From: an uncultured delta proteobacterium
Lineage (GTDB): Bacteria > Desulfobacterota > Binatia > UBA9968
NCBI GenBank assembly: GCA_963727625.1
Contig: CAVSHR010000006.1
Coordinates: 1-64,000 of the forward strand
Length of the DNA stretch: 64,000 bases
Reading direction: 5' to 3'
Shown: piece by piece, positions 1 to 16,710 of the stretch
How the letters are laid out: the number at the start of each line of letters is the position of its first letter
Numbering within the stretch: the stretch's first letter is position 1
Notes under the pieces: model-generated
Seen by the model: the letters and a program-made list of their open reading frames with translations, nothing else
Database searches by the model: none
Told to the model about the DNA's origin: nothing
Translations under genes and position numbers: made by a program

Positions 1-33
1 CTAGATAACGGCGATGGATGTATGCGTTGCTCG

Positions 34-723
34 ATGCCAAGACGAGCGCGCATTGCTCCCGGTGAAATAATTTACCACGCTCTCAACCGCGCCAACGGGC
101 GCGGCCAACTTTTTGACAAGCCCGAAGATTACGCCGCGTTCGAGCGGATCATGGTTGCAGCGATGCGCCGTTCTCCGATCCGGCTGCTGGCTTATTGTTT
201 GATGCCCAATCACTGGCACATGGTTTTGTGGCCGAAGAAGGACGGCGAGATGACCGAGTTTCTTCGCTGGCTCACGCTCACTCACAGCCAACGTCTACAC
301 GCTCACCGCCACACCACCGGCTACGGGCATATTTATCAAGGGCGGTTCAAAAGTTTTCCCGTCGAGCAGGATCAAGCCGCGCTCAATGTGATTCGCTATG
401 TGGAACGCAACGCCTTGCGAGCCAACCTCGTCGACAAAGCGCAGGACTGGCGCTGGTGCAGTCTATGGCGAAAAGTTCATGGGGATCGAGAATCGTTGCT
501 GAGCGAGTGGTCCTTCGATAGGCCGGCAAACTGGGTTGAATGGGTGAACACGGCACAAACAGAAGGTGAAATCGAAGCGCTGCGGAGGTGCGTGAACCGC
601 GGCACACCCTACGGCACGGAAACTTGGAAGACAAAGATCGCGGCTACGCTCGGATTGAAATATACACTTCAGCCACGCGGTCGTCCTAGAAAGGCGGTGG
701 AATTAGCAAATACGCAAACGTAA
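34..723 (+). mobile_element. REP-associated tyrosine transposase (RAYT, Y1_Tnp/HUH family)
   Basis: MPRRAR N-terminus, YHALNRAN, YCLMPNHWH (HUH), YQGRFKS, YVERN (catalytic Tyr), WRWCS, C-terminal PRGRPRK. Confidence 0.92.
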
Positions 724-1841: not shown

Positions 1842-2129
1842 CTAACCCTTGCGGGATAGCAGCGTTCGCAAGGTCTCGTAAACATCGCGTCGGTGGCCGA
1901 CGTGATAGACTTCCAGACAGGACTCTTCGTCATTGACCCGGTAGATGATGCGATAACGCCTGACGCGGTAGGAACGGTAACCGTCGAGTTCACCGGTGAG
2001 TTCCGTACCCATCTCATGCTTTGTTAGCAACGTATCGATCGTCGATCGGACCAGCCGTTTTATTTCAGGCGGCAGCTTGGCAATAAGCCGGGAGCATTCG
2101 GGGGTATAACGAGCAAACAGTTTGCTCAA
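1842..2129 (-). CDS. relE: RelE/ParE family toxin
   Basis: LTGELDGYRSYRVRRYRIIYRV...VGHRRDVYE; TTG start overlaps the antitoxin stop (TTGA). Confidence 0.88.
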   Translation of the reverse strand: MSKLFARYTPECSRLIAKLPPEIKRLVRSTIDTLLTKHEMGTELTGELDGYRSYRVRRYRIIYRVNDEESCLEVYHVGHRRDVYETLRTLLSRKG

Positions 2130-2395
2130 CGCCGATATACCTCGTCCGGACGCAACCACTTGCCCTTGCGGCCTTGACGGATGGAAGTTCTTAGACACTT
2201 GACTGTGTCCTCGTCGCTGAGAATCTCGAGCGTTTCGAGCAAACCGGCGTATTTCTCCATGCTGAGGATCACCGCGGCGGGGACGCCGTTTTTGGTGACG
2301 GCGACCGACTCGTCGGCGCTTTCAATTTGACGGATCAGATCCAATAGATCGTTTTTTGCTTTTGTGATCGGGACGTATTTTGATATCTCGTTCAT
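2126..2395 (-). CDS. Phd/YefM family antitoxin
   Basis: VPITKAKNDLLDLI...VTKNGVPAAVILS...LLETLEILSD; GAGG RBS upstream. Confidence 0.9.
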   Translation of the reverse strand: MNEISKYVPITKAKNDLLDLIRQIESADESVAVTKNGVPAAVILSMEKYAGLLETLEILSDEDTVKCLRTSIRQGRKGKWLRPDEVYRR

Positions 2396-2410
2396 AATGA
2401 CCTCAATAAC

Positions 2411-2442
2411 GGCCAGTATAATAGCCACTGGCCGGCTGTCAA
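2411..2442 (-). promoter_or_regulatory. sigma70 promoter of the TA operon with overlapping operator palindrome
   Basis: TTGACA-N16-TATACT on the minus strand; inverted repeat GGCCAGT-N9-ACTGGCC (2411-2433) overlaps the -10 box. Confidence 0.7.
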
Positions 2443-2767
2443 GATCGCGCGGACTCTCCATTACTTTGAGCGGTTAGGTCAACCAATAACATTTCTACTC
2501 GATTGTGCTTTGCCGCGCAGATAGCATTCATCGAACCTTGGTTTGTCCGATGTCAAAAATTGTCGTGGCGCAGACGAATATCCAGATCCAGGGAAGCAAA
2601 GGGGCAAGTCTAGAGTTAGCTAATACTCGCCACAGTCTTTTCGACCCGATCCCGGAGTTGTCTGTTCCTGCGGCGACATGCGCGGCGATCCTGGGTTGCT
2701 GGCGATTGGGACCGGAGAGTTCGAGTTCGACAACTTCGCAATCGCCAATGTGGAGTAGCCCTTGCGA

Positions 2768-4730: not shown

Positions 4731-5153
4731 TTATAAGAATGCACGCTGCAAGGAGCTCACGAATTGGATGTGCGGAACGGATTTCGCGCTTAGCCGTTCA
4801 TCGTTTGTGATAAACAGATCGACGCGCGCGTGCGCTGCACAGGCGAGCTGAATCGCGTCGGGTGGTCGGATGGTGCGATCCTTTCGAATGCTGGCGTAGA
4901 GACGGGCCGGCTCGACATCGAAAGGAATAATCACCGCGCCCCGCAGCAACACAGATTCATAACGACGGGCCAAACTCTCGTTCCCCTCTTCCATCGGCTT
5001 GATCAGGATTTCTCCCAAGGTAAGAGCAGAAGTGTAGAGCTCGTCACCGCGTTCGAGCATACGTCTGCGCAAAGCGGTGACGCGCTCCGATAAGTCACGA
5101 AAGTCCTCGATCAAGTAAATGAAGAGATTGGTGTCCCAGAAAATTCGGCTCAC
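4731..5153 (-). CDS. vapC: PIN-domain VapC toxin
   Basis: IFWDTNLFIY, TLGEIL, DAIQLACA, FITND; GTG start overlaps the upstream stop (GTGA). Confidence 0.9.
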   Translation of the reverse strand: MSRIFWDTNLFIYLIEDFRDLSERVTALRRRMLERGDELYTSALTLGEILIKPMEEGNESLARRYESVLLRGAVIIPFDVEPARLYASIRKDRTIRPPDAIQLACAAHARVDLFITNDERLSAKSVPHIQFVSSLQRAFL

Positions 5154-5659
5154 TCCCATCCTCCGCGAATGCGGCTGACGTAGTCATCGGGCTTTTCATT
5201 CACCCAAATTTCTTTCCCCAATCCACGCAGGCCTAAAATCGGATCACTTTCTTTGGATCCTTTTCTTTTGCCGATGAATTGCTCCTTATACCAAACGAGC
5301 AACGGGTGATACTTGGCTGGAATATCTTCCTTGTCGGGCAGTACTTTGCCACGGCGACGTTTCGGATCGAAGTCGTCGGTTTCCCGAAAGAGCCGGCGGG
5401 TGCTTTTACCGGTCGCGTAGAGCATCCGATGCGAGCCGGGGTTCGGCGCCCGGTTCGCAACGCAATGAAGGTATGCATGTACTTGAACGCCCGCTCTTAA
5501 CTCCGCGGATATATGTTCCCGTCGTGCCCGGTCTACTATTTCAACGACGCTGAAATCCTCGCGTTTTGGATTTTCCTTGTGCAGGAGAGCGGTCGCGATC
5601 CAAACTTCGTCTGCGACTTTGATCGCGTTTATGGGTTCCTTTTTCATTAGGTTTACCAT
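5150..5659 (-). CDS. putative large antitoxin partner of VapC
   Basis: translationally coupled to vapC; C-terminal LRGLGKEIW...DDYVSRIRGGWE resembles VapB-like tails. Confidence 0.7.
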   Translation of the reverse strand: MVNLMKKEPINAIKVADEVWIATALLHKENPKREDFSVVEIVDRARREHISAELRAGVQVHAYLHCVANRAPNPGSHRMLYATGKSTRRLFRETDDFDPKRRRGKVLPDKEDIPAKYHPLLVWYKEQFIGKRKGSKESDPILGLRGLGKEIWVNEKPDDYVSRIRGGWE

Positions 5660-5747: not shown

Positions 5748-5818
5748 GTGTCTGATTTGCCTAACTCTACTAATTAACTCAAGTTCGCTGATTGGCGGGG
5801 AGTCCGCCCGCCGGTGCA
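5748..5818. repeat. ~70-bp dispersed repeat with small hairpin, copy 1
   Basis: about 80% identical to 8965-9031; conserved GGCGG-N5-CCGCC stem. Confidence 0.8.
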
Positions 5819-5866
5819 ATTGTTTAGATATCCAGGCCTGGCCCAAAGAGTACTGCCGTGGGCCGA

Positions 5867-6052
5867 TCAATCTGCCGACGGGTTTTTGAACTCACGTAAC
5901 AGCGGTGCGAGTTCAACTGTCTTCAGCGCGCCGACAGCGGCTTCCCAACGTCCCTCGGCGCAGAGGCACTGCATGCCCGCATCCTCGTAGGCTTGAAGGG
6001 CGGCTTCAAGGCATGCGTCTCGAGTGCGTTTGGCGAGAACTTCCGGTTCCAT
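5867..6052 (-). CDS. small conserved hypothetical protein
   Basis: ACLEAALQAYEDAG..LCAEGRWEAAV motif; plausible RBS. Confidence 0.65.
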   Translation of the reverse strand: MEPEVLAKRTRDACLEAALQAYEDAGMQCLCAEGRWEAAVGALKTVELAPLLREFKNPSAD

Positions 6053-6137
6053 ATGGCTTCCACCGACGAATGTCTAGAGTCTATCGTTAATTCGCAAGCT
6101 GGAACAATGCGGCAAGGTAACTTGGAACTGCGCAAGT

Positions 6138-7496
6138 CTACTCTGAGATGACGCGCACCGGCGCGGCTTCGGGCTCGGGCGGCGGCTTGGCGCGAAAATC
6201 GATGGGCAGAGGTTGTTCGCCTAGCATGTTGGCAAGGAGCACTTCGCGGACGCTTTCCAAGTCCAACCCTGCAGCGGCCGCATGCGGGGCGACTTCCGCC
6301 AAAACGCGGTCAATGTCCTGCATCATTTTCCACTGCTTGAAGAGATCGGGTTTCTCGACGCCCATCGCCTCGCCGACCAGCTCGAGAAAATTGACGACTT
6401 TGAAGGGTGACGTGGCTTCGTGGGCGCACAGCTCGCGATGGCAGGCGTGATAGATGCCGACGAGATAATCGACTCCGGCCGCAGCGGCGGCCTCTAGCTC
6501 GCGGGCGTGCAGCTCGCGTTTGTACGCCGGCACGGGAGCGAGCGAGTTGCACATGTAGCCGACGCGCGGCTGTTCGAGATCGACCAGCTCCAAACCTGGA
6601 ATCGCCGCGAGAATTTTAATCGCGCCTTCGGTCACGCCGGCCACGCCGGGATGCTCGTGCAGGGCGATCCGCTTGTTGATCGGATGGATGAAGTGAGGGC
6701 GAAGCAGCTCGATGCGCTCGGCGATGTAGGGCACGACGTGCTGCAGATCGAAGGTTGCGTCGGTGCTCGGCATGACGATCTCGCCCAGCTGGATGTTGCA
6801 GGTCGGACACCAGGTGAGCACGCGCGGCGCGCCCGTGCCGGCGAATCCGGCCACTGTGCCGCCGCCGATTCGCCCCGAGGTTTTGGTGTCGCCGGCGCGG
6901 TACTGAATCACGCCGCAGCAATACGCGGGGCCGGCAAAAACTCTGTAGCGCGCGCCGAGGCGGTCCAGGACTTCGAGGCAGAGCAGCGCGATATGCGGCG
7001 TCTTGAGGACGTTGCAACCGAGATACATCACGATGTCCGGCGCCGGATCCGACCCGGCGGCGGCCGGTTGAGTGAAACCGGCGAGGAGATCGGCGGGAAG
7101 CTGCAGACGCGACAGCACCTTCACCGCGCTGGACATTTTTTTGAAGCCGGCTTGGCCGGCGGCGCGCCGTTCGCCCGCCTGGCGCCGCTCGTTGAGCCTC
7201 AGACGGGTCGCCGCCAACATGAAACGCGGATTAACGCCGTCGTCGCAGGCCGTGAGACACCGACCGGAGCCGGTGCACGCGTTGGCCCAGCGGGCGCCGC
7301 GGCTTGATGGATCGCCGCCGCCGCGCAAAATATCCAGCACATCGCCGACGATCGCCGACGGCTCGGTGGTATCGATCCCCGCCGGCGCCGCCGTGGGACA
7401 AACCTCGACGCACTTCGCGCAGCGGGTGCAGCGGTCAAGAATATCGCGCACGCGCAGGTCGATCGTCGCGATGAATGCATCGGCGTGATCGGTCAT
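6138..7496 (-). CDS. Fe-S oxidoreductase with 4Fe-4S dicluster and CCG domains (GlcF/HdrD-like)
   Basis: CTRCAKCVEVCP, YLGC, YCCG, WCPTC, YHAC. Confidence 0.88.
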   Translation of the reverse strand: MTDHADAFIATIDLRVRDILDRCTRCAKCVEVCPTAAPAGIDTTEPSAIVGDVLDILRGGGDPSSRGARWANACTGSGRCLTACDDGVNPRFMLAATRLRLNERRQAGERRAAGQAGFKKMSSAVKVLSRLQLPADLLAGFTQPAAAGSDPAPDIVMYLGCNVLKTPHIALLCLEVLDRLGARYRVFAGPAYCCGVIQYRAGDTKTSGRIGGGTVAGFAGTGAPRVLTWCPTCNIQLGEIVMPSTDATFDLQHVVPYIAERIELLRPHFIHPINKRIALHEHPGVAGVTEGAIKILAAIPGLELVDLEQPRVGYMCNSLAPVPAYKRELHARELEAAAAAGVDYLVGIYHACHRELCAHEATSPFKVVNFLELVGEAMGVEKPDLFKQWKMMQDIDRVLAEVAPHAAAAGLDLESVREVLLANMLGEQPLPIDFRAKPPPEPEAAPVRVISE

Positions 7497-7585
7497 GGCT
7501 TCTCCCTTTGCAAAGCGCGGAACCTCCTGCTACCGGCAGTCTGCCTTCATGTAAAGCTGATTGTCAATTACCGTAGGTTGTGTGG

Positions 7586-7667
7586 GATCGTTATCCGTGA
7601 AAGCGCGCACGAAACCATTTTCGAATTCGTCGAGCGTCTTCGCAGTCCGCACGTTGGCGATGCCGCA
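7586..7667 (-). pseudogene. internal fragment of a comE allele
   Basis: 72/82 nt identical to 10899-10980. Confidence 0.9.
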
Positions 7668-7739
7668 CAAGTCCCTTACGATAGCTAAACACTTTCAGCG
7701 AGAGTTATTGGGTGAGACGCAGGGGTCGAGCACTCCGAT

Positions 7740-8075
7740 TCATGGTAGGACAACCGAAACCTGACCATGGGGCCTGCGGGTCGGGCGGACGGTAATCTCC
7801 ACGTCCTGCCCAAGCGCGACTAGAAAGTCCATCAGCCTTTCAACCGAAAAGTTGCCGGACCGATTGCGCATCAGCGCCGAGACATGGGGCTGCTTGATGC
7901 CGAGCAAAGCGCCCGCCTGAGTCTGGGTGAGATCGCGGTCTTTGATGATGCGGTAGATCTGCAGCGTAAGATGAGCCTTGAGTTGCTCGCGTTCCGGATT
8001 AGCGAAACCGATATCGGCGAATACATTGCCGCTGCTCTTTTCGAAAGTCATTCGGTTTTTTTTCCTTACCGCCAT
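7740..8075 (-). CDS. XRE-family HTH antitoxin (HigA-like), orphan
   Basis: SSGNVFADIG, LTQTQAGALLGIKQPHVSALM, FSVERLM; no toxin gene upstream. Confidence 0.88.
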   Translation of the reverse strand: MAVRKKNRMTFEKSSGNVFADIGFANPEREQLKAHLTLQIYRIIKDRDLTQTQAGALLGIKQPHVSALMRNRSGNFSVERLMDFLVALGQDVEITVRPTRRPHGQVSVVLP

Positions 8076-8101
8076 GATCAATGGCTCCTTTGCCGGTCAG
8101 T

Positions 8102-8309
8102 GCGCTCGCGCGCGACAGCGTCGAGGTGAGGATTTTTATGTTTTCGCTTTTCTCGATGTAGCGCACGAACAAATATTTGTTTTCCTGCGAATCCAACGGC
8201 GCCGCGGGCACTCACGCCCTTCGTGTCGGCAGCGGCACGCGGTCGATGTGCTCGATCTCGGTGAGCAGCAGCCGCTCGGTCAGGGCCGCGCGGATCTTGG
8301 TGTGTGCCG
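8102..8309 (-). repeat. chimeric duplicate of the comE 3' tail and the sulfatase 3' tail
   Basis: 8102-8211 matches 10748-10857 (106/110); 8203-8309 matches 9069-9175 (1 mismatch). Confidence 0.95.
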
Positions 8310-8505
8310 CGGCTCGGGAGTCAGGTCTCTTGATTCTTGGATTTGCTGTTGCCAGCTTAAATCGTCATTGGGGTCTGGATATCTAATCAATTGTGGCCCT
8401 CGTGCGCGACGGTTTTACCGTCTGGATTGTCCGCATCACTCGGAAAATCCTCAAGTTGGCGAGATCACCCGGCCTTGGTATACTCAGCGCGTAACGGAGG
8501 GAACA

Positions 8506-8721
8506 ATGAAACTAACTGCGGTCATTGAGCGGGAGGGAGACGGTTATGTCTCGCTGTGCCCCGAGCTGGACGTGGCGAGTCAAGGTAAAACCGTCGAGGA
8601 AGCGCGCGACAATTTACGCGAAGCGTTGGAGCTCTTCTTGGAGTCGGCTTCAGCCGATGAAATCAAGCAGCGGCTGCGGAGCGAGGTGTTCGTGACCCAG
8701 ATTGAGGTCGCAGTTGGCTAG
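8506..8721 (+). CDS. hicB: HicB family antitoxin
   Basis: MKLTAVIEREGDGYVSLCPELDVASQGKTVEEARDNLREALEL; GGAGG RBS. Confidence 0.9.
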   Translation: MKLTAVIEREGDGYVSLCPELDVASQGKTVEEARDNLREALELFLESASADEIKQRLRSEVFVTQIEVAVG

Positions 8722-8935
8722 ACTGCGTATTCTTTCCGGGAAGGAAGTCTGCGCTATCCTAAGAAAGTCCGGCTTTGAGGAAATCCGTAGGCGAGGCAGC
8801 CATGTGATCATGCAGAAAAAAATTGCGACGGGAACGATTACTGTTCCAGTACCTGATCACGGTGAGATTCGCATTGGCACGCTGCAATCGATCATCCGCC
8901 AGTCCGGGGTGTCGAGAAGCGAATTCAAAGAGTAA
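8714..8935 (+). CDS. hicA: HicA family toxin
   Basis: LSGKEVCAIL..GF...RRGSH...VPVPDH.EI..GTLQSIIRQSG. Confidence 0.9.
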   Translation: MARLRILSGKEVCAILRKSGFEEIRRRGSHVIMQKKIATGTITVPVPDHGEIRIGTLQSIIRQSGVSRSEFKE

Positions 8936-8964
8936 TTTCGAATGACTTGATAGCCTCCCCTCCA

Positions 8965-9031
8965 GTGTCCGACTTGCCTAAATCTACTAACTCAAATTCG
9001 CTGTTGGCGGGGGAGCCGCCGGCCTGTAGCA
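8965..9031. repeat. ~70-bp dispersed repeat, copy 2
   Basis: similar to 5748-5818. Confidence 0.8.
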
Positions 9032-9077
9032 CGCAAACAGATATTTGTTTTCCTGCGAGTCCAACGGGCGCGGGCAC

Positions 9078-10676
9078 TCACGCCCTTCGTGTCGGCAGCG
9101 GCACGCGGTCGATGTGCTCGATCTCGGTGAGCAGCAGCCGCTCGGTCAGGGCCGCGCGGATCTTGGCGTGTGCCGGATCGTCCCAGAGATTATCGAACTC
9201 GCCCGGATCGTTCTCAAGATCGTAGAGCTCGCCCCAGCCGGTGCCATGGAAGACCGACAGGCGGTAGCGGCCGTCGATCAAGCTGTGCACCCGCGGCGGT
9301 ATGGCGGTGCCCGGGCTCGAGCTCTGGTGGTCGTACTGGATGAACACCGAGTCGCGCACCGCTGTGCCGCGCTCGATCGCCGGCAGCAGATTTCTACCCT
9401 GCATGCCGCTCGCGGGCTCGACCCTCGCCCGCTCCAGGATCGTCGCGCGAATGTCCATGGTGGAAGCCAGCGCGTCGCTGCGCGCCTGTGCCGGCGGCGT
9501 CTGTGGATCGGCCCAGATGAAGGGCACGCGCACTATGCTCTGGTACTGCTCGGCGCCTTTGAGCATCAGGCGGTGATCGCCGAGATGATCGCCATGGTCG
9601 CTGGTGAAGAGGACCACGGTGTCGTCGCACCGGCCGCTCTTGTCGAGCGCCGCCAGCACGGAGCCGATGGCGTCGTCGATGCATGAGATCATGCCGCAGG
9701 TCAGCGCCCGGGCCTCCTGCGCCTCGCGCGCGGTGACGCCGATGCTGTTCATGCCGTCGAGGTTGGCCTTGCCGGTGTCGCGATCCCTCCAGATGTTGCG
9801 AATGAGCGTTGGCGGCGTCCAGTCCCGGCGGGAAAACGCCTCCGGCGCCGGGAACTGCTCGGGCTCGTACATGTCCCAATACTTACCCGGCGGATTGAAC
9901 GGGTGGTGCGGATCGGGGAACGAAACCATCAAGAAGAACGGCGCATCGGCGTCGGCCTGGTCGAGATAAGCGCAGGCGCGCTCGCCGAGGAAGGCCGTGG
10001 CGTAAAGTTCCGCCGGGATCGCCGTGCGATAAGCCTGCGGGCAGATGTAATCGTGCGGCAATGAGTTTTTCGGCCCAAGCAGACTCCGCGCCTTGGCATC
10101 GCGCTGATCGAGCCAGCGGTCGTAGTCGCCGCCCGGCCTGTCGCCATGCGCGCGCACCAGCGTCACCTGCTCGAAGCCATAGAACGGAGTGCGCACATGG
10201 GCGTCCGGCCCGTTCCAATATTCCGGCGTCTCCTGCTCGTACTGCGGCTCGGCGAGATCGTGGCGCAGCGCCTGCGCCAGCGCCTTGGACGGCTCATGGA
10301 ACCCGTCGCGCGGCGGCGGACGCTTGATGGTCGGAGGGTTCGCTGTGAAATTCTGCAGATGGCTCTTGCCGATCAGGGCGGTGCGGTAACCGGCGTCCCG
10401 CAGCAGATCGACGAAGGTCACCGCGTTCATGGTCAGCGGAATGCCGTTTGAGCGCACACCGTGCACCGAGGGCATGCGCGCGGTCATCAGGCTGGCGCGG
10501 TTGGGCATGCAGACCGGGCTGGCGACGTAAAAGCGCTCGAAGACAGTTCCGCGCGCCGCGATGGAATCGATGTGCGGGGTGCGCAGCACCGGGTGGCCGT
10601 AGCAGCCCAGAAAGTCCGCGCGCTGCTGATCGGTGATGAAAAGCAGGAAATTGGGTCGGGAGGAGGTTTTTGCCAT
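9078..10676 (-). CDS. sulfatase-like hydrolase (formylglycine-dependent)
   Basis: PNFLLFITDQQR, CMPNRAS (CxPxR), GKSH, PDPHHPF, FTSDHG. Confidence 0.93.
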   Translation of the reverse strand: MAKTSSRPNFLLFITDQQRADFLGCYGHPVLRTPHIDSIAARGTVFERFYVASPVCMPNRASLMTARMPSVHGVRSNGIPLTMNAVTFVDLLRDAGYRTALIGKSHLQNFTANPPTIKRPPPRDGFHEPSKALAQALRHDLAEPQYEQETPEYWNGPDAHVRTPFYGFEQVTLVRAHGDRPGGDYDRWLDQRDAKARSLLGPKNSLPHDYICPQAYRTAIPAELYATAFLGERACAYLDQADADAPFFLMVSFPDPHHPFNPPGKYWDMYEPEQFPAPEAFSRRDWTPPTLIRNIWRDRDTGKANLDGMNSIGVTAREAQEARALTCGMISCIDDAIGSVLAALDKSGRCDDTVVLFTSDHGDHLGDHRLMLKGAEQYQSIVRVPFIWADPQTPPAQARSDALASTMDIRATILERARVEPASGMQGRNLLPAIERGTAVRDSVFIQYDHQSSSPGTAIPPRVHSLIDGRYRLSVFHGTGWGELYDLENDPGEFDNLWDDPAHAKIRAALTERLLLTEIEHIDRVPLPTRRA

Positions 10677-10737
10677 GGCGGATCCCTCGTTCGATCCTGG
10701 GATGCTAGCTTAATTGAGTTAGATGCCACGCCGATTG

Positions 10738-11349
10738 CTAGCGCGTGGCGCTCGCGCGCGACAGCGTCGAGGTGAGGATTTTTATCTTTTCGCTTTTCTC
10801 TATGTAGCGCACGAACAGATATTTGTTTTCCTGCGAATCCAGCGGCGCCGCGGGCACATCGCCCGCTCCCTCTTCAACCTTGGCATGAATGAAATAGAGA
10901 TCGTCACCCCTGAAAGCGCGCATAAAACCGTTTTCGAATTCATCGAGCGTCTTCGCCGTGAGCACGTTGGCGATGCCGCAGCCCCGGGCGATGGCGGCCA
11001 GGTCGGCTTGGCCCGCGGTCGCCGTCGGCGCGCCGCGGGAAGACTCATAGCATTCATTGTCGAAGACGACGTGAACCAGGTTCTTCGGATGTTGATTGGC
11101 GATGGTCGCGAGGCTCCCGAGATTGAGCAGCAACGACCCGTCGCCGTCGAAGGCGACGACTTTGCGGTGCGGCAGAGCCAGGGCCAAGCCGAGCGCCATG
11201 GACGAGGTGAGACCGAGATTTTGCAAATGGTAGTTGCCGTGGTGCGGCCTCAAAGCTTGCCATTCGTGGCGCACGGCGCCCAGGTTGGTGACCACCAGCT
11301 CGTCGCCGAAGTGCGGCGCGATTGCGCGCAGACAGTCGTATCTTTTCAT
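10738..11349 (-). CDS. comE: sulfopyruvate/phosphonopyruvate decarboxylase-like beta subunit (TPP-binding)
   Basis: DGDGSLLLNLG...VFDNECYES TPP motif; paired with an alpha subunit. Confidence 0.75.
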   Translation of the reverse strand: MKRYDCLRAIAPHFGDELVVTNLGAVRHEWQALRPHHGNYHLQNLGLTSSMALGLALALPHRKVVAFDGDGSLLLNLGSLATIANQHPKNLVHVVFDNECYESSRGAPTATAGQADLAAIARGCGIANVLTAKTLDEFENGFMRAFRGDDLYFIHAKVEEGAGDVPAAPLDSQENKYLFVRYIEKSEKIKILTSTLSRASATR

Positions 11350-11353
11350 CGAC

Positions 11354-11854
11354 TTACCTCAGTGCTTGTTTGTTGAGGACGATGGCCGTCGGCCGGCGCG
11401 ACGAGCGCGCGAGCATCTGACTGTCGCGAATCGTCGGGCGGATCTCCTCGAAGCGGCCGACTTTCTCGTAAACGATATGCATGGCCTGCAGCACCGGCTC
11501 TGTCAGAGCCCCGACCGTGGCGTGCCCGGCATTTTCCTCGCCCACCCCGCCGCTGTGGCCGATCAACATCAACACGGGTATCTCCGGATGAATGCAGACC
11601 GTCGCCAAAGCGTTGGTCGACAATAAGAAGCCTGCGTTCATCATCACCATCGCCGGCCGTCTTCCGCCCAGGTAGGCGCCGGCGCAGATGCCGATGCCCT
11701 CTTCCTCGCGCGTCACGGGCACATGATGAATCGCCGAATCCTCTCCCAGCGCAATCACCAGATCGTGCAGGTTCGCTTCAGTAAGGGTTGCAATAAAATC
11801 GACCCCTGCCTCCTTTAGCGAATCGACGATCTCGGCGGCCACTTCTCGCTTCAT
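11354..11854 (-). CDS. comD: sulfopyruvate decarboxylase-like alpha subunit
   Basis: VTREEEGIGICAGAYLGG, MMNAG. Confidence 0.75.
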   Translation of the reverse strand: MKREVAAEIVDSLKEAGVDFIATLTEANLHDLVIALGEDSAIHHVPVTREEEGIGICAGAYLGGRRPAMVMMNAGFLLSTNALATVCIHPEIPVLMLIGHSGGVGEENAGHATVGALTEPVLQAMHIVYEKVGRFEEIRPTIRDSQMLARSSRRPTAIVLNKQALR

Positions 11855-16619: not shown

Positions 16620-16710
16620 TGTGAGGTCGAGCGCAATTAAAAAGTCCATCAGTCGTTCGACTGAAAAATTGCCCGAACGGTCACGCATCAGGGCCGAAAC
16701 ATGGGGCTCC
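16620..16710 (-). pseudogene. fragment of a HigA-like XRE antitoxin
   Basis: translates as PHVSALMRDRSGNFSVERLMDFLIAL, paralogous to the 7740-8075 gene. Confidence 0.85.

What the first reader, a model, noticed from the sequence alone, without database searches (positions are those of the whole stretch)
7586..10980. Nested insertions that each duplicate the 3' end of the target gene
Seen: hicBA (8310-9024) is bracketed by a ~150-bp direct repeat (8157-8309 and 9025-9175) that is itself a chimera of the comE tail and the sulfatase tail. Further comE pieces sit at 8102-8211 (106/110 identical; 3 of 4 changes synonymous) and 7586-7667 (72/82). The intact genes remain upstream. Inference: successive incoming segments recombined into the end of a gene, restored it, and displaced the old allele's tail downstream. 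One junction would be homologous and the other at a GGG..GTC motif (8316 is 6 nt from the displaced sulfatase tail). This resembles one-ended or homology-facilitated capture of cargo (sulfatase, HicBA, HigA) without an integrase.
Basis: partly seen in the sequence, partly recalled or inferred. Interest (0 to 1): 0.75.

Follow-up and report, generated by a model that had tools for sequence, protein, structure and literature searches.

The report
Gene ends as integrase-free cassette docks
In this uncultured soil bacterium, dozens of small gene blocks, often toxin-antitoxin pairs, sit between an intact gene end and a leftover copy of that end, likely because circles of DNA from relatives recombined in through the gene end without an integrase.

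Summary
The repeats are real and as described. The sulfatase/comE-remnant junction is bridged by contigs from three other studies, so it is not an assembly artefact; the hicBA and higA junctions were not bridged. The locus is one of 56 such scarred loci in this Binatia genome: 86 of 87 orphan gene pieces are on the parent's strand, and 62 of 71 end pieces lie so that the gene stays intact. TA modules are strongly enriched in the cargo (18 of 59, in 2.6% of the genome). A tyrosine recombinase lies at 1 of 71. Junctions use short microhomologies. GGG..GTC is a TIRYT transposase-end look-alike here but not a general signal. One well-resolved relative shows an allele switch inside the repeat, which favours single crossover of a recircularised fragment over linear HFIR. 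higA is an antitoxin orphaned by a later deletion. Known precedents: Rhs C-terminal displacement, and laboratory single-crossover duplications. The scan has already noted the same scar on other DNA.

The parts
11354..11854 (-). comD-like TPP enzyme alpha subunit
   Evidence: Pfam TPP_enzyme_N; TIGR03845 below cut-off
10738..11349 (-). intact comE-like TPP enzyme beta subunit, the target gene; its last codons and downstream differ from those of the three closest orthologs
10899..10980 (-). in-gene copy matching the orphan at 7586-7667
   Evidence: 72/82 identical
10748..10857 (-). in-gene copy of the 110-bp comE tail
   Evidence: 106/110 identical to 8102-8211
9078..10676 (-). sulfatase cargo gene, itself the target of the next insertion
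   Evidence: Pfam Sulfatase; lies away from comE in G004
9025..9175 (-). upstream copy of the 153-bp repeat: functional sulfatase end, 3-nt GTG microhomology at 9075-9077, then a decayed comE remnant with a 2-bp deletion
   Evidence: junction bridged in runs X2 and X3
8965..8992 (+). 28-bp conserved intergenic element that starts like the genome's Y1 (TIRYT) transposase ends
8714..8935 (+). hicA toxin (possible start at 8702)
   Evidence: Pfam HicA_toxin
8506..8721 (+). hicB-like antitoxin
   Evidence: Pfam UPF0150, E 2e-5, below cut-off
8212..8309 (-). displaced sulfatase tail (orphan)
   Evidence: 97/98 identical to 9078-9175
8102..8211 (-). displaced comE tail (orphan), cut 10 nt before its stop
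   Evidence: sulfatase/comE junction bridged in run X5
8082..8106 (-). 3' stump of a deleted Gp49/HigB-type toxin, joined to the comE tail at a 5-nt microhomology (8102-8106)
   Evidence: matches the end of the Gp49-type toxin gene in front of the higA homolog of G017
7740..8075 (-). orphan higA-like HTH antitoxin
   Evidence: Pfam HTH_37
7586..7667 (-). internal comE orphan, likely the stump of an older displaced tail
6138..7496 (-). Fe-S/CCG oxidoreductase; its upstream region is joined to the comE orphan at 7582-7586
   Evidence: absent from the near-empty site in L071
5867..6052 (-). 61-aa gene that follows comE by about 215 bp in the closest relative (L071), the far flank of the locus
5748..5775 (+). 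second copy of the 28-bp element

Best explanation
The locus is a stack of gene-gain scars, likely made when pieces of DNA from related Binatia, each carrying a gene end plus its neighbouring genes, closed into circles at short microhomologies and integrated by a single homologous crossover inside that gene end. Shown: the repeats, their polarity, the microhomologies, the lack of an integrase, recurrence in relatives, and TA enrichment. Inferred: a circle joins the cargo end to a point p inside a homolog of the target gene. A crossover between p and the stop keeps the gene whole and leaves gene - cargo - orphan tail. Circles with gene-internal pieces would break the gene and be lost, which would give the tail-downstream / head-upstream polarity. 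Inferred order here: (1) a higBA block entered at comE (p=10980); (2) the Fe-S block trimmed that orphan to 7586-7667; (3) a 5-nt microhomology deletion removed higB; (4) the sulfatase entered at comE (p=10857); (5) hicBA entered through the sulfatase tail from a sibling lineage that already had the sulfatase/comE join. The order of (2) and (3) relative to the rest is the least certain. Untested: repeat-flanked cargo can loop out again, so TA addiction would favour TA-bearing cassettes among the survivors.
For: Polarity: of 87 orphan pieces within 12 kb of a parent gene, 86 are same-strand; 45 are 3' tails downstream and 17 are 5' heads upstream, vs 8 and 1 reversed. The copies diverged mostly as working alleles: 649 of 1037 mismatches at codon position 3, 550 synonymous vs 334 non-synonymous codons. 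Start points vary at one gene: comE nt 370 and 493 here, nt 427 in a relative; three different starts at one Ldh gene in G012. Microhomology: native sulfatase ends continue GTG-ATTTC in G004 and L103, and the comE tail starts GTG. Allele switch in the relative's comE locus: the intact copy matches the closest ortholog at 13 of 13 differing sites in the junction-side 117 bp; 7 of the 13 orphan alleles occur in other orthologs; the last 65 bp are identical; the orphan's downstream matches the ortholog's. The same direction appears more weakly in 2 more of 10 events. Longest perfect runs inside repeats exceed codon-shuffled nulls (2343 vs 1952+-71, 0 of 500). Precedent: 56 of 60 one-end-homology E. 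coli integrants were 109-950 bp duplications from trimming, recircularisation and single crossover (PMC3240628, passages); median orphan here is 128 bp. ComEC and DprA are present.
Against: 7 of the 10 events tested for alleles were uninformative or mixed, including both comE events of this locus; relatives are only 81-88% identical at most loci. Orphan decay also makes the intact copy look closer to relatives. Many repeats are 45-110 bp at 80-90% identity, short for RecA unless trimmed later. Perfect runs at the junction end were not significantly longer than at the other end (p=0.13). No circle or empty-site sibling strain was seen. The source reads were not found (best share of words 0.16). 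Other metagenomes resolve the sulfatase/comE junction about 10 nt further along, so this genome's junction is either a separate event or was converted later. ComEC and DprA also ring in 10 and 11 of 14 control genomes.
Confidence: 0.55

Rival explanations
1. Linear homology-facilitated illegitimate recombination: a transforming linear fragment is anchored by homology upstream, and its free end joins the displaced resident strand at a microhomology inside the gene, so the orphan is wholly the resident allele.
For: Same architecture and polarity; 3-5 nt microhomologies within the 3-10 bp reported for HFIR; ComEC and DprA present; proposed for Vibrio T6SS arrays (PMC5361080, passages). Two deletion-type junctions here (8102-8106, 7582-7586) look like classic HFIR ends.
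Against: Experimental HFIR usually gives deletions, not duplications. In the best-resolved event the junction-side half of the orphan is the allele unlike the resident lineage, 13 of 13 sites.
Confidence: 0.25
2. TIRYT (Y1 HUH) transposase ends make the non-homologous junction, by cutting at a terminal repeat to form the circle or by later adjacent deletion.
For: 35 Y1_Tnp matches in the genome, many with GG[GT]GTCAG-type inverted ends, matching the TIRYT consensus quoted in PMC6006769 (passages). A look-alike lies 6 nt from the 8309 junction, and one abuts the junction of the Fe-S orphan in G018. CCTGAC faces 7 of 71 junctions vs 62 of 7080 intergenic 60-mers.
Against: That test was post hoc (7 patterns; 3 of the 7 hits lie in Y1 or Rhs repeats). 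Independent set: 1 of 23, p=0.18. Strict 9-mer: 2 of 71 and 0 of 23. TA modules are not enriched near such ends (4 of 59 vs 1.9 expected, p=0.12). It could explain at most a minority of junctions.
Confidence: 0.07
3. Local duplication in cis (long target duplication or tandem duplication plus deletion), with the copies identical at birth and diverging afterwards.
For: A few repeats are 98-100% identical; 1 of 98 differences in the sulfatase part.
Against: Mismatches are mostly synonymous and at third positions. Within one repeat the comE part differs at 7 of 55 and the sulfatase part at 1 of 98 (p=0.003). Orphans carry alleles found in other lineages. In the G003 locus the orphan keeps the ancestral downstream sequence while the intact gene has a different end.
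Confidence: 0.06
4. Decayed integrase-driven islands (tRNA-island or icd-type) whose integrase genes were lost or act in trans.
For: Displaced target fragments are the standard island signature (PMC4383910, abstract start in listing). The genome has 16 tyrosine recombinase matches, and one event is an integrase tail.
Against: 1 of 71 events has a tyrosine recombinase within 1 kb; none in the window. No fixed start point per gene, no shared core; cargo median about 2 kb over 56 unrelated loci.
Confidence: 0.04
5. Strain-chimeric assembly.
For: Metagenome-assembled genome with 6.3% estimated contamination; no run from the source was found, and the hicBA and higA junctions were not bridged.
Against: The sulfatase/comE chimera is bridged in contigs of three other studies (X2, X3, X5). 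The same scars occur in other assemblies of the genus. Polarity and decay are not expected from misassembly; the genome has 15 long contigs.
Confidence: 0.03

Closest known systems
C-terminal displacement at rhs loci by single crossover of a circular intermediate (Jackson et al. 2009, PMC2935791; passages)
   Same: Intact gene followed by cargo and a displaced, variable-length piece of the same gene; nested arrays; no integrase; two-step circle model.
   Different: Here the targets are ordinary metabolic genes (TPP enzyme, sulfatase, amidohydrolases, dehydrogenases), the new end is a near-synonymous allele and not a new domain, 5' heads are displaced too, and the cargo is TA pairs and enzymes.
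Trimming, recircularisation and single crossover of one-end-homology DNA in E. coli (Amarir-Bouhram et al. 2011, PMC3240628; first part of text and passages)
   Same: Produces 109-950 bp duplications of the homologous end around foreign DNA, RecA-dependent, no integrase.
   Different: A laboratory plasmid system at very low frequency; here the footprint is natural, about 9 end pieces per Mb in this genome.
Homology-facilitated illegitimate recombination, as proposed for Vibrio T6SS effector-immunity arrays (Kirchberger et al. 2017, PMC5361080; passages)
   Same: One homologous anchor, one microhomology junction, sequential displacement downstream.
   Different: HFIR normally couples insertion with deletion; the best-resolved case here has the allele switch inside the repeat.
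tRNA/tmRNA genomic islands (Islander, PMC4383910; abstract start in listing)
   Same: The restored target and its displaced fragment mark the ends of the insert.
   Different: No integrase, no fixed attachment site, protein-coding targets, small cargo.
Minimal mobile elements of Neisseria (as described in PMC3787668; passages)
   Same: Small variable gene sets exchanged among relatives by recombination in conserved flanking genes.
   Different: Those are two-flank replacements without a duplicated gene end; these are additive and leave orphans.
TA stabilisation of deletable DNA (superintegrons, PMC2654758, passages; Shigella MvpAT acting locally against IS-mediated deletion, PMC5629016, abstract)
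   Same: TA modules sit in DNA that can be lost by recombination between repeats.
   Different: Not tested here; the repeats are host gene ends, and PMC2654758 warns that some chromosomal TAs do not stabilise.

Membership tests
Integrase-dependent genomic island | Tyrosine or serine integrase in the element | tested here: not met
   No PF00589 match in the window; 1 of 71 events genome-wide. Serine recombinases were not searched.
Integrase-dependent genomic island | Fixed attachment site with a conserved core | tested here: not met
   comE starts at nt 370, 427, 493; Ldh at 816, 823, 856; no enriched 4-6-mer after correction.
Integrase-dependent genomic island | Target restored, displaced fragment at the far end | tested here: met
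Integron gene cassette | attC hairpin with RYYYAAC/GTTRRRY ends | tested here: not met
   The two candidate stretches fold no better than shuffles (z 0.2-0.7); the AAC position varies in the 28-bp element.
Rhs-type C-terminal displacement (circle + single crossover) | Orphan gene ends of variable length downstream of an intact gene, same strand, nested | tested here: met
Rhs-type C-terminal displacement (circle + single crossover) | Crossover inside the repeated piece | tested here: inconclusive
   Clear in 1, weak in 2, uninformative in 7 of 10 events.
Rhs-type C-terminal displacement (circle + single crossover) | Polymorphic toxin core with a new toxin tip and immunity gene | tested here: not met
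   Targets are metabolic genes; so it works like it but is not an Rhs locus.
Rhs-type C-terminal displacement (circle + single crossover) | Free circular intermediate | not testable with these tools
   No raw reads of the organism were found.
HFIR | 3-10 bp microhomology at the non-homologous junction | tested here: met
   3 nt at 9075-9077 and 5 nt at 8102-8106; only these two junctions had a donor-side homolog to test.
HFIR | Insertion coupled with deletion, displaced piece wholly of resident allele | tested here: inconclusive
   Duplication, not deletion, at the capture junctions; contradicted in 1 event, unresolved in most.
HFIR | Natural competence and RecA dependence | not testable with these tools
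   ComEC and DprA genes present; uncultured organism.
TIRYT transposon | Y1 transposase between inverted GGGG[AT][CG]A[CG] ends | tested here: not met
   No Y1 gene in 7586-10980; the three look-alikes around hicBA all face the same way.

The most novel reading that the evidence does not exclude
Binatia run an integrase-free cassette system in which any gene end is a dock. Tail-plus-cargo circles enter by single crossover, can loop out again between the two ends and move between relatives, and build arrays at one gene (three at an Ldh gene in G012). TA addiction is what keeps them, which would explain a twelve-fold excess of TA modules in such cargo. In a minority of cases TIRYT transposase ends supply the circle junction.
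Probability: 0.3. Interest if true: 0.68.

Novelty: new variant of a known kind. Interest (0 to 1): 0.45.

Why it matters
It gives a countable genomic footprint for gene gain that needs no mobile-element enzyme, and a route by which TA modules, usually without their own mobility genes, reach and persist in chromosomes. About 30% of the TA modules surveyed here lie in such scars. The allele-switch test separates circle integration from linear HFIR using genomes alone. The mechanism itself is known from Rhs loci and from E. coli experiments, and the scan has seen the scar in other lineages, so the gain is scale, polarity statistics and the TA link, not a new machine.

Tried and rejected
Shared junction motif: GGG..GTC 9 of 71 vs 22 of 353 (p=0.08); no 4-6-mer significant after correction. 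CCTGAC looked enriched post hoc but did not replicate (1 of 23). attC reading of the 28-bp element: no fold beyond shuffles. Allele test on six G000 events outside this locus: one weakly informative, five not. Junction-end perfect run vs other end: not significant. Source reads: no run held over 0.16 of the words; six runs were laid, all as contigs; no cover over 8293-8536 or 8964-9024, which proves nothing. X6 had 30 letters on one side of the junction and X4's piece was not listed, so neither is counted as bridging. Outgroup rates (0 in 200 kb of G026, 1 in 80 kb of G025, 0 in 360 kb of sulfatase loci from metagenomes) are too small and not randomly chosen. Two original HFIR papers were not held and are known only through. 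Four literature searches for this pattern with TA cargo or in Binatia returned nothing relevant; subscription journals are not covered. No supplements were read.
Full report
Observation. Read on the minus strand the order is: comD-like, comE-like, sulfatase, 53-bp comE remnant, hicBA (inverted), 98-bp sulfatase tail, 110-bp comE tail, higA, 82-bp internal comE piece, Fe-S gene, 61-aa gene. 'comE' is a sulfopyruvate-decarboxylase-like TPP subunit below the TIGR03846 cut-off. Record titles of close homologs name Candidatus Binatia.

Is it an artefact? No run held the source strain (best share 0.16). Contigs from three other studies bridge the sulfatase/comE-remnant junction with at least 31 letters on both sides: X2 (9036-10394), X3 (9043-9608) and X5 (8170-8261). 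X2 and X3 keep the two bases missing from the 9025-9077 copy. These contigs resolve the junction about 10 nt further along a patch where the native sulfatase flank and comE match at 10 of 13 positions, so this genome's junction is a separate event or was converted later. The hicBA and higA junctions were not covered.

Empty and alternative sites. In the closest comE ortholog (L071, 98% aa) comE is followed after about 215 bp by the 61-aa gene, with none of the 4.6 kb of cargo; its hicBA homolog (81%) lies 4 kb away on the other side of comE, behind an amidohydrolase. Of 27 comE loci examined, 1 had a displaced comE tail. In that relative (G003) the orphan tail runs on into the downstream sequence of the uninterrupted G019 locus, while the intact gene has a different end. 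This shows that the displaced copy ends as the old resident end did.

Junctions. Native sulfatase genes of the two closest homologs continue GTG-ATTTC after the stop, and the comE tail begins GTG, a 3-nt microhomology. At 8102-8106 the comE tail joins, over 5 shared bases, the last 25 nt of a Gp49/HigB-type toxin gene, as seen in front of the higA homolog of G017. So higA is an orphan antitoxin and this junction is a deletion. At 7582-7586 the internal comE piece joins the upstream region of the Fe-S gene. The 153-bp repeat is uneven: 1 of 98 differences in the sulfatase part, 7 of 55 in the comE part (p=0.003), which fits a sibling donor with an older, decayed remnant better than a fresh copy.

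Genome survey. With my own hexamer gene caller (6410 genes, not curated) I searched each gene of 300 nt or more for orphan pieces within 12 kb (at least 45 bp, 78%, under 60% of the gene, not inside another long gene). Of 87 pieces, 86 are on the parent's strand: 45 tails downstream, 17 heads upstream, 12 internal downstream, against 8, 1 and 3 reversed. Median tail length is 128 bp, median distance about 2 kb. Of 1037 mismatches in the 62 end pieces 649 are at third positions, and 550 of 884 changed codons are synonymous. After dropping pieces of 700 bp or more, 71 events fall in 56 loci covering 2.6% of the genome. Some lie in paralog arrays, Rhs or transposase tandems and are not independent; 106 repeat pairs with both copies in long genes were left aside. 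Eight TA-related Pfam families gave 68 hits in 59 modules; 18 lie inside cargo, against 1.5 expected (p=7e-15) and against 59 of 1213 small genes (p=1.5e-9). Only 15 of the 56 loci hold a TA of those families, so most cargo is something else, such as enzymes and transporters. One of 71 events has a tyrosine recombinase, and it is the integrase's own tail. The scar recurs in the genus: 5 in 216 kb of G003, 11 in 285 kb of chosen tiles, with three nested tails at one Ldh gene of G012 starting at nt 816, 823 and 856; G000 tiles give 29 in 3.32 Mb.

Motif. GGG..GTC is not general (9 of 71 vs 22 of 353, p=0.08). The motif at 8316 resembles the terminal repeats of the genome's Y1 transposases (35 matches), whose consensus is quoted for TIRYT elements in PMC6006769 (passages). 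A related hexamer faced 7 of 71 junctions in a post hoc test but only 1 of 23 in other genomes, though that one abuts the junction. It may account for a few junctions, perhaps this one.

Mechanism. Two integrase-free routes give this layout. Linear HFIR predicts an orphan wholly of resident allele. Single crossover of a circle predicts donor allele on the junction side and resident allele at the far end. In the one event with a 97%-identical relative, the intact copy matches the relative at 13 of 13 sites in the first 117 bp, 7 of the 13 orphan alleles occur in other orthologs, the last 65 bp are identical, and the orphan then follows the relative. Two more of 10 events lean the same way; 7, including both comE events of this locus, do not resolve. 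Perfect-identity runs inside repeats exceed nulls, as expected near crossovers or after conversion. In E. coli, 56 of 60 one-end-homology integrants were 109-950 bp duplications from recircularisation and single crossover, and 4 were HFIR (PMC3240628). The rhs model of Jackson et al. needs the same circle (PMC2935791). I put circles at 0.55 and HFIR at 0.25; both may act, and the two deletion junctions here fit HFIR or simple deletion. That TA addiction filters which cassettes survive loop-out is an inference from PMC5629016 (abstract) and PMC2654758 (passages); small size or general TA mobility could also contribute.

Comparison and novelty. It works like Rhs C-terminal displacement but is not an Rhs locus, an integrase island, an integron cassette or a TIRYT transposon (membership table). 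Four searches found no paper describing this genome-wide at ordinary genes with TA cargo, within a library that lacks most subscription journals. Earlier notes of this scan report the same scar in sponge-associated bacteria, CPR bacteria, Asgard archaea, cyanobacteria and elsewhere in this genome; they are unchecked, and they pointed me to the circle model, which I then tested.

Verdict. Real, recurrent and mostly explained by known recombination; new as a genome-wide, polar, TA-enriched pattern in Binatia. New variant of a known kind, interest 0.45.

Noticed in passing
window 8965-8992 and 5748-5775: A 28-bp intergenic element with 69 matches (19-mer, up to 1 mismatch) in 16 of 31 genus genomes vs 6 for the reversed control, often in pairs; it starts like the TIRYT ends and holds a small hairpin. 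Possibly solo transposase ends; role unknown.
   Followed up: partly
window 22-723, with repeats at 716-756 and 1251-1291: Y1 (RAYT/TIRYT-like) transposase with a duplicated 41-bp end; the genome has 35 Y1_Tnp matches, several in tandem at G000:C8:235700-245300.
   Followed up: partly
window 1842-2461 and 4731-5659: Two more TA-like pairs (ParE/Phd; PIN with an unannotated partner) within 7 kb, not flanked by detected gene-end repeats.
   Followed up: no
window 16630-16708: A second fragment of the higA-like gene (81%); the closest relative has a similar fragment at L071 421-518.
   Followed up: no
window 5817-5838 and 8372-8393: A 22-bp inverted match (91%) that also occurs near two other copies of the 28-bp element (G000:C5:481293, C7:159776).
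   Followed up: partly
L314 2017-9454 (G012): Ldh_2 gene with three nested displaced tails; the nearest cassette is an MNT-HEPN pair, while the G000 ortholog carries an AbiEii-type pair.
   Followed up: partly
L030 10097-17812 (G018): The Fe-S gene of this locus has its own 230-bp displaced tail in G018, with a TIRYT-like end directly at the junction.
   Followed up: partly
G000:C8:77125-89922: An integrase whose own 3' end is duplicated 11 kb downstream, the one event with a tyrosine recombinase.
   Followed up: no
run X4, joint 5916 to 9042: One contig joins the comE remnant directly to the 61-aa gene, suggesting a lineage without the middle of this locus; single low-depth contig.
   Followed up: no
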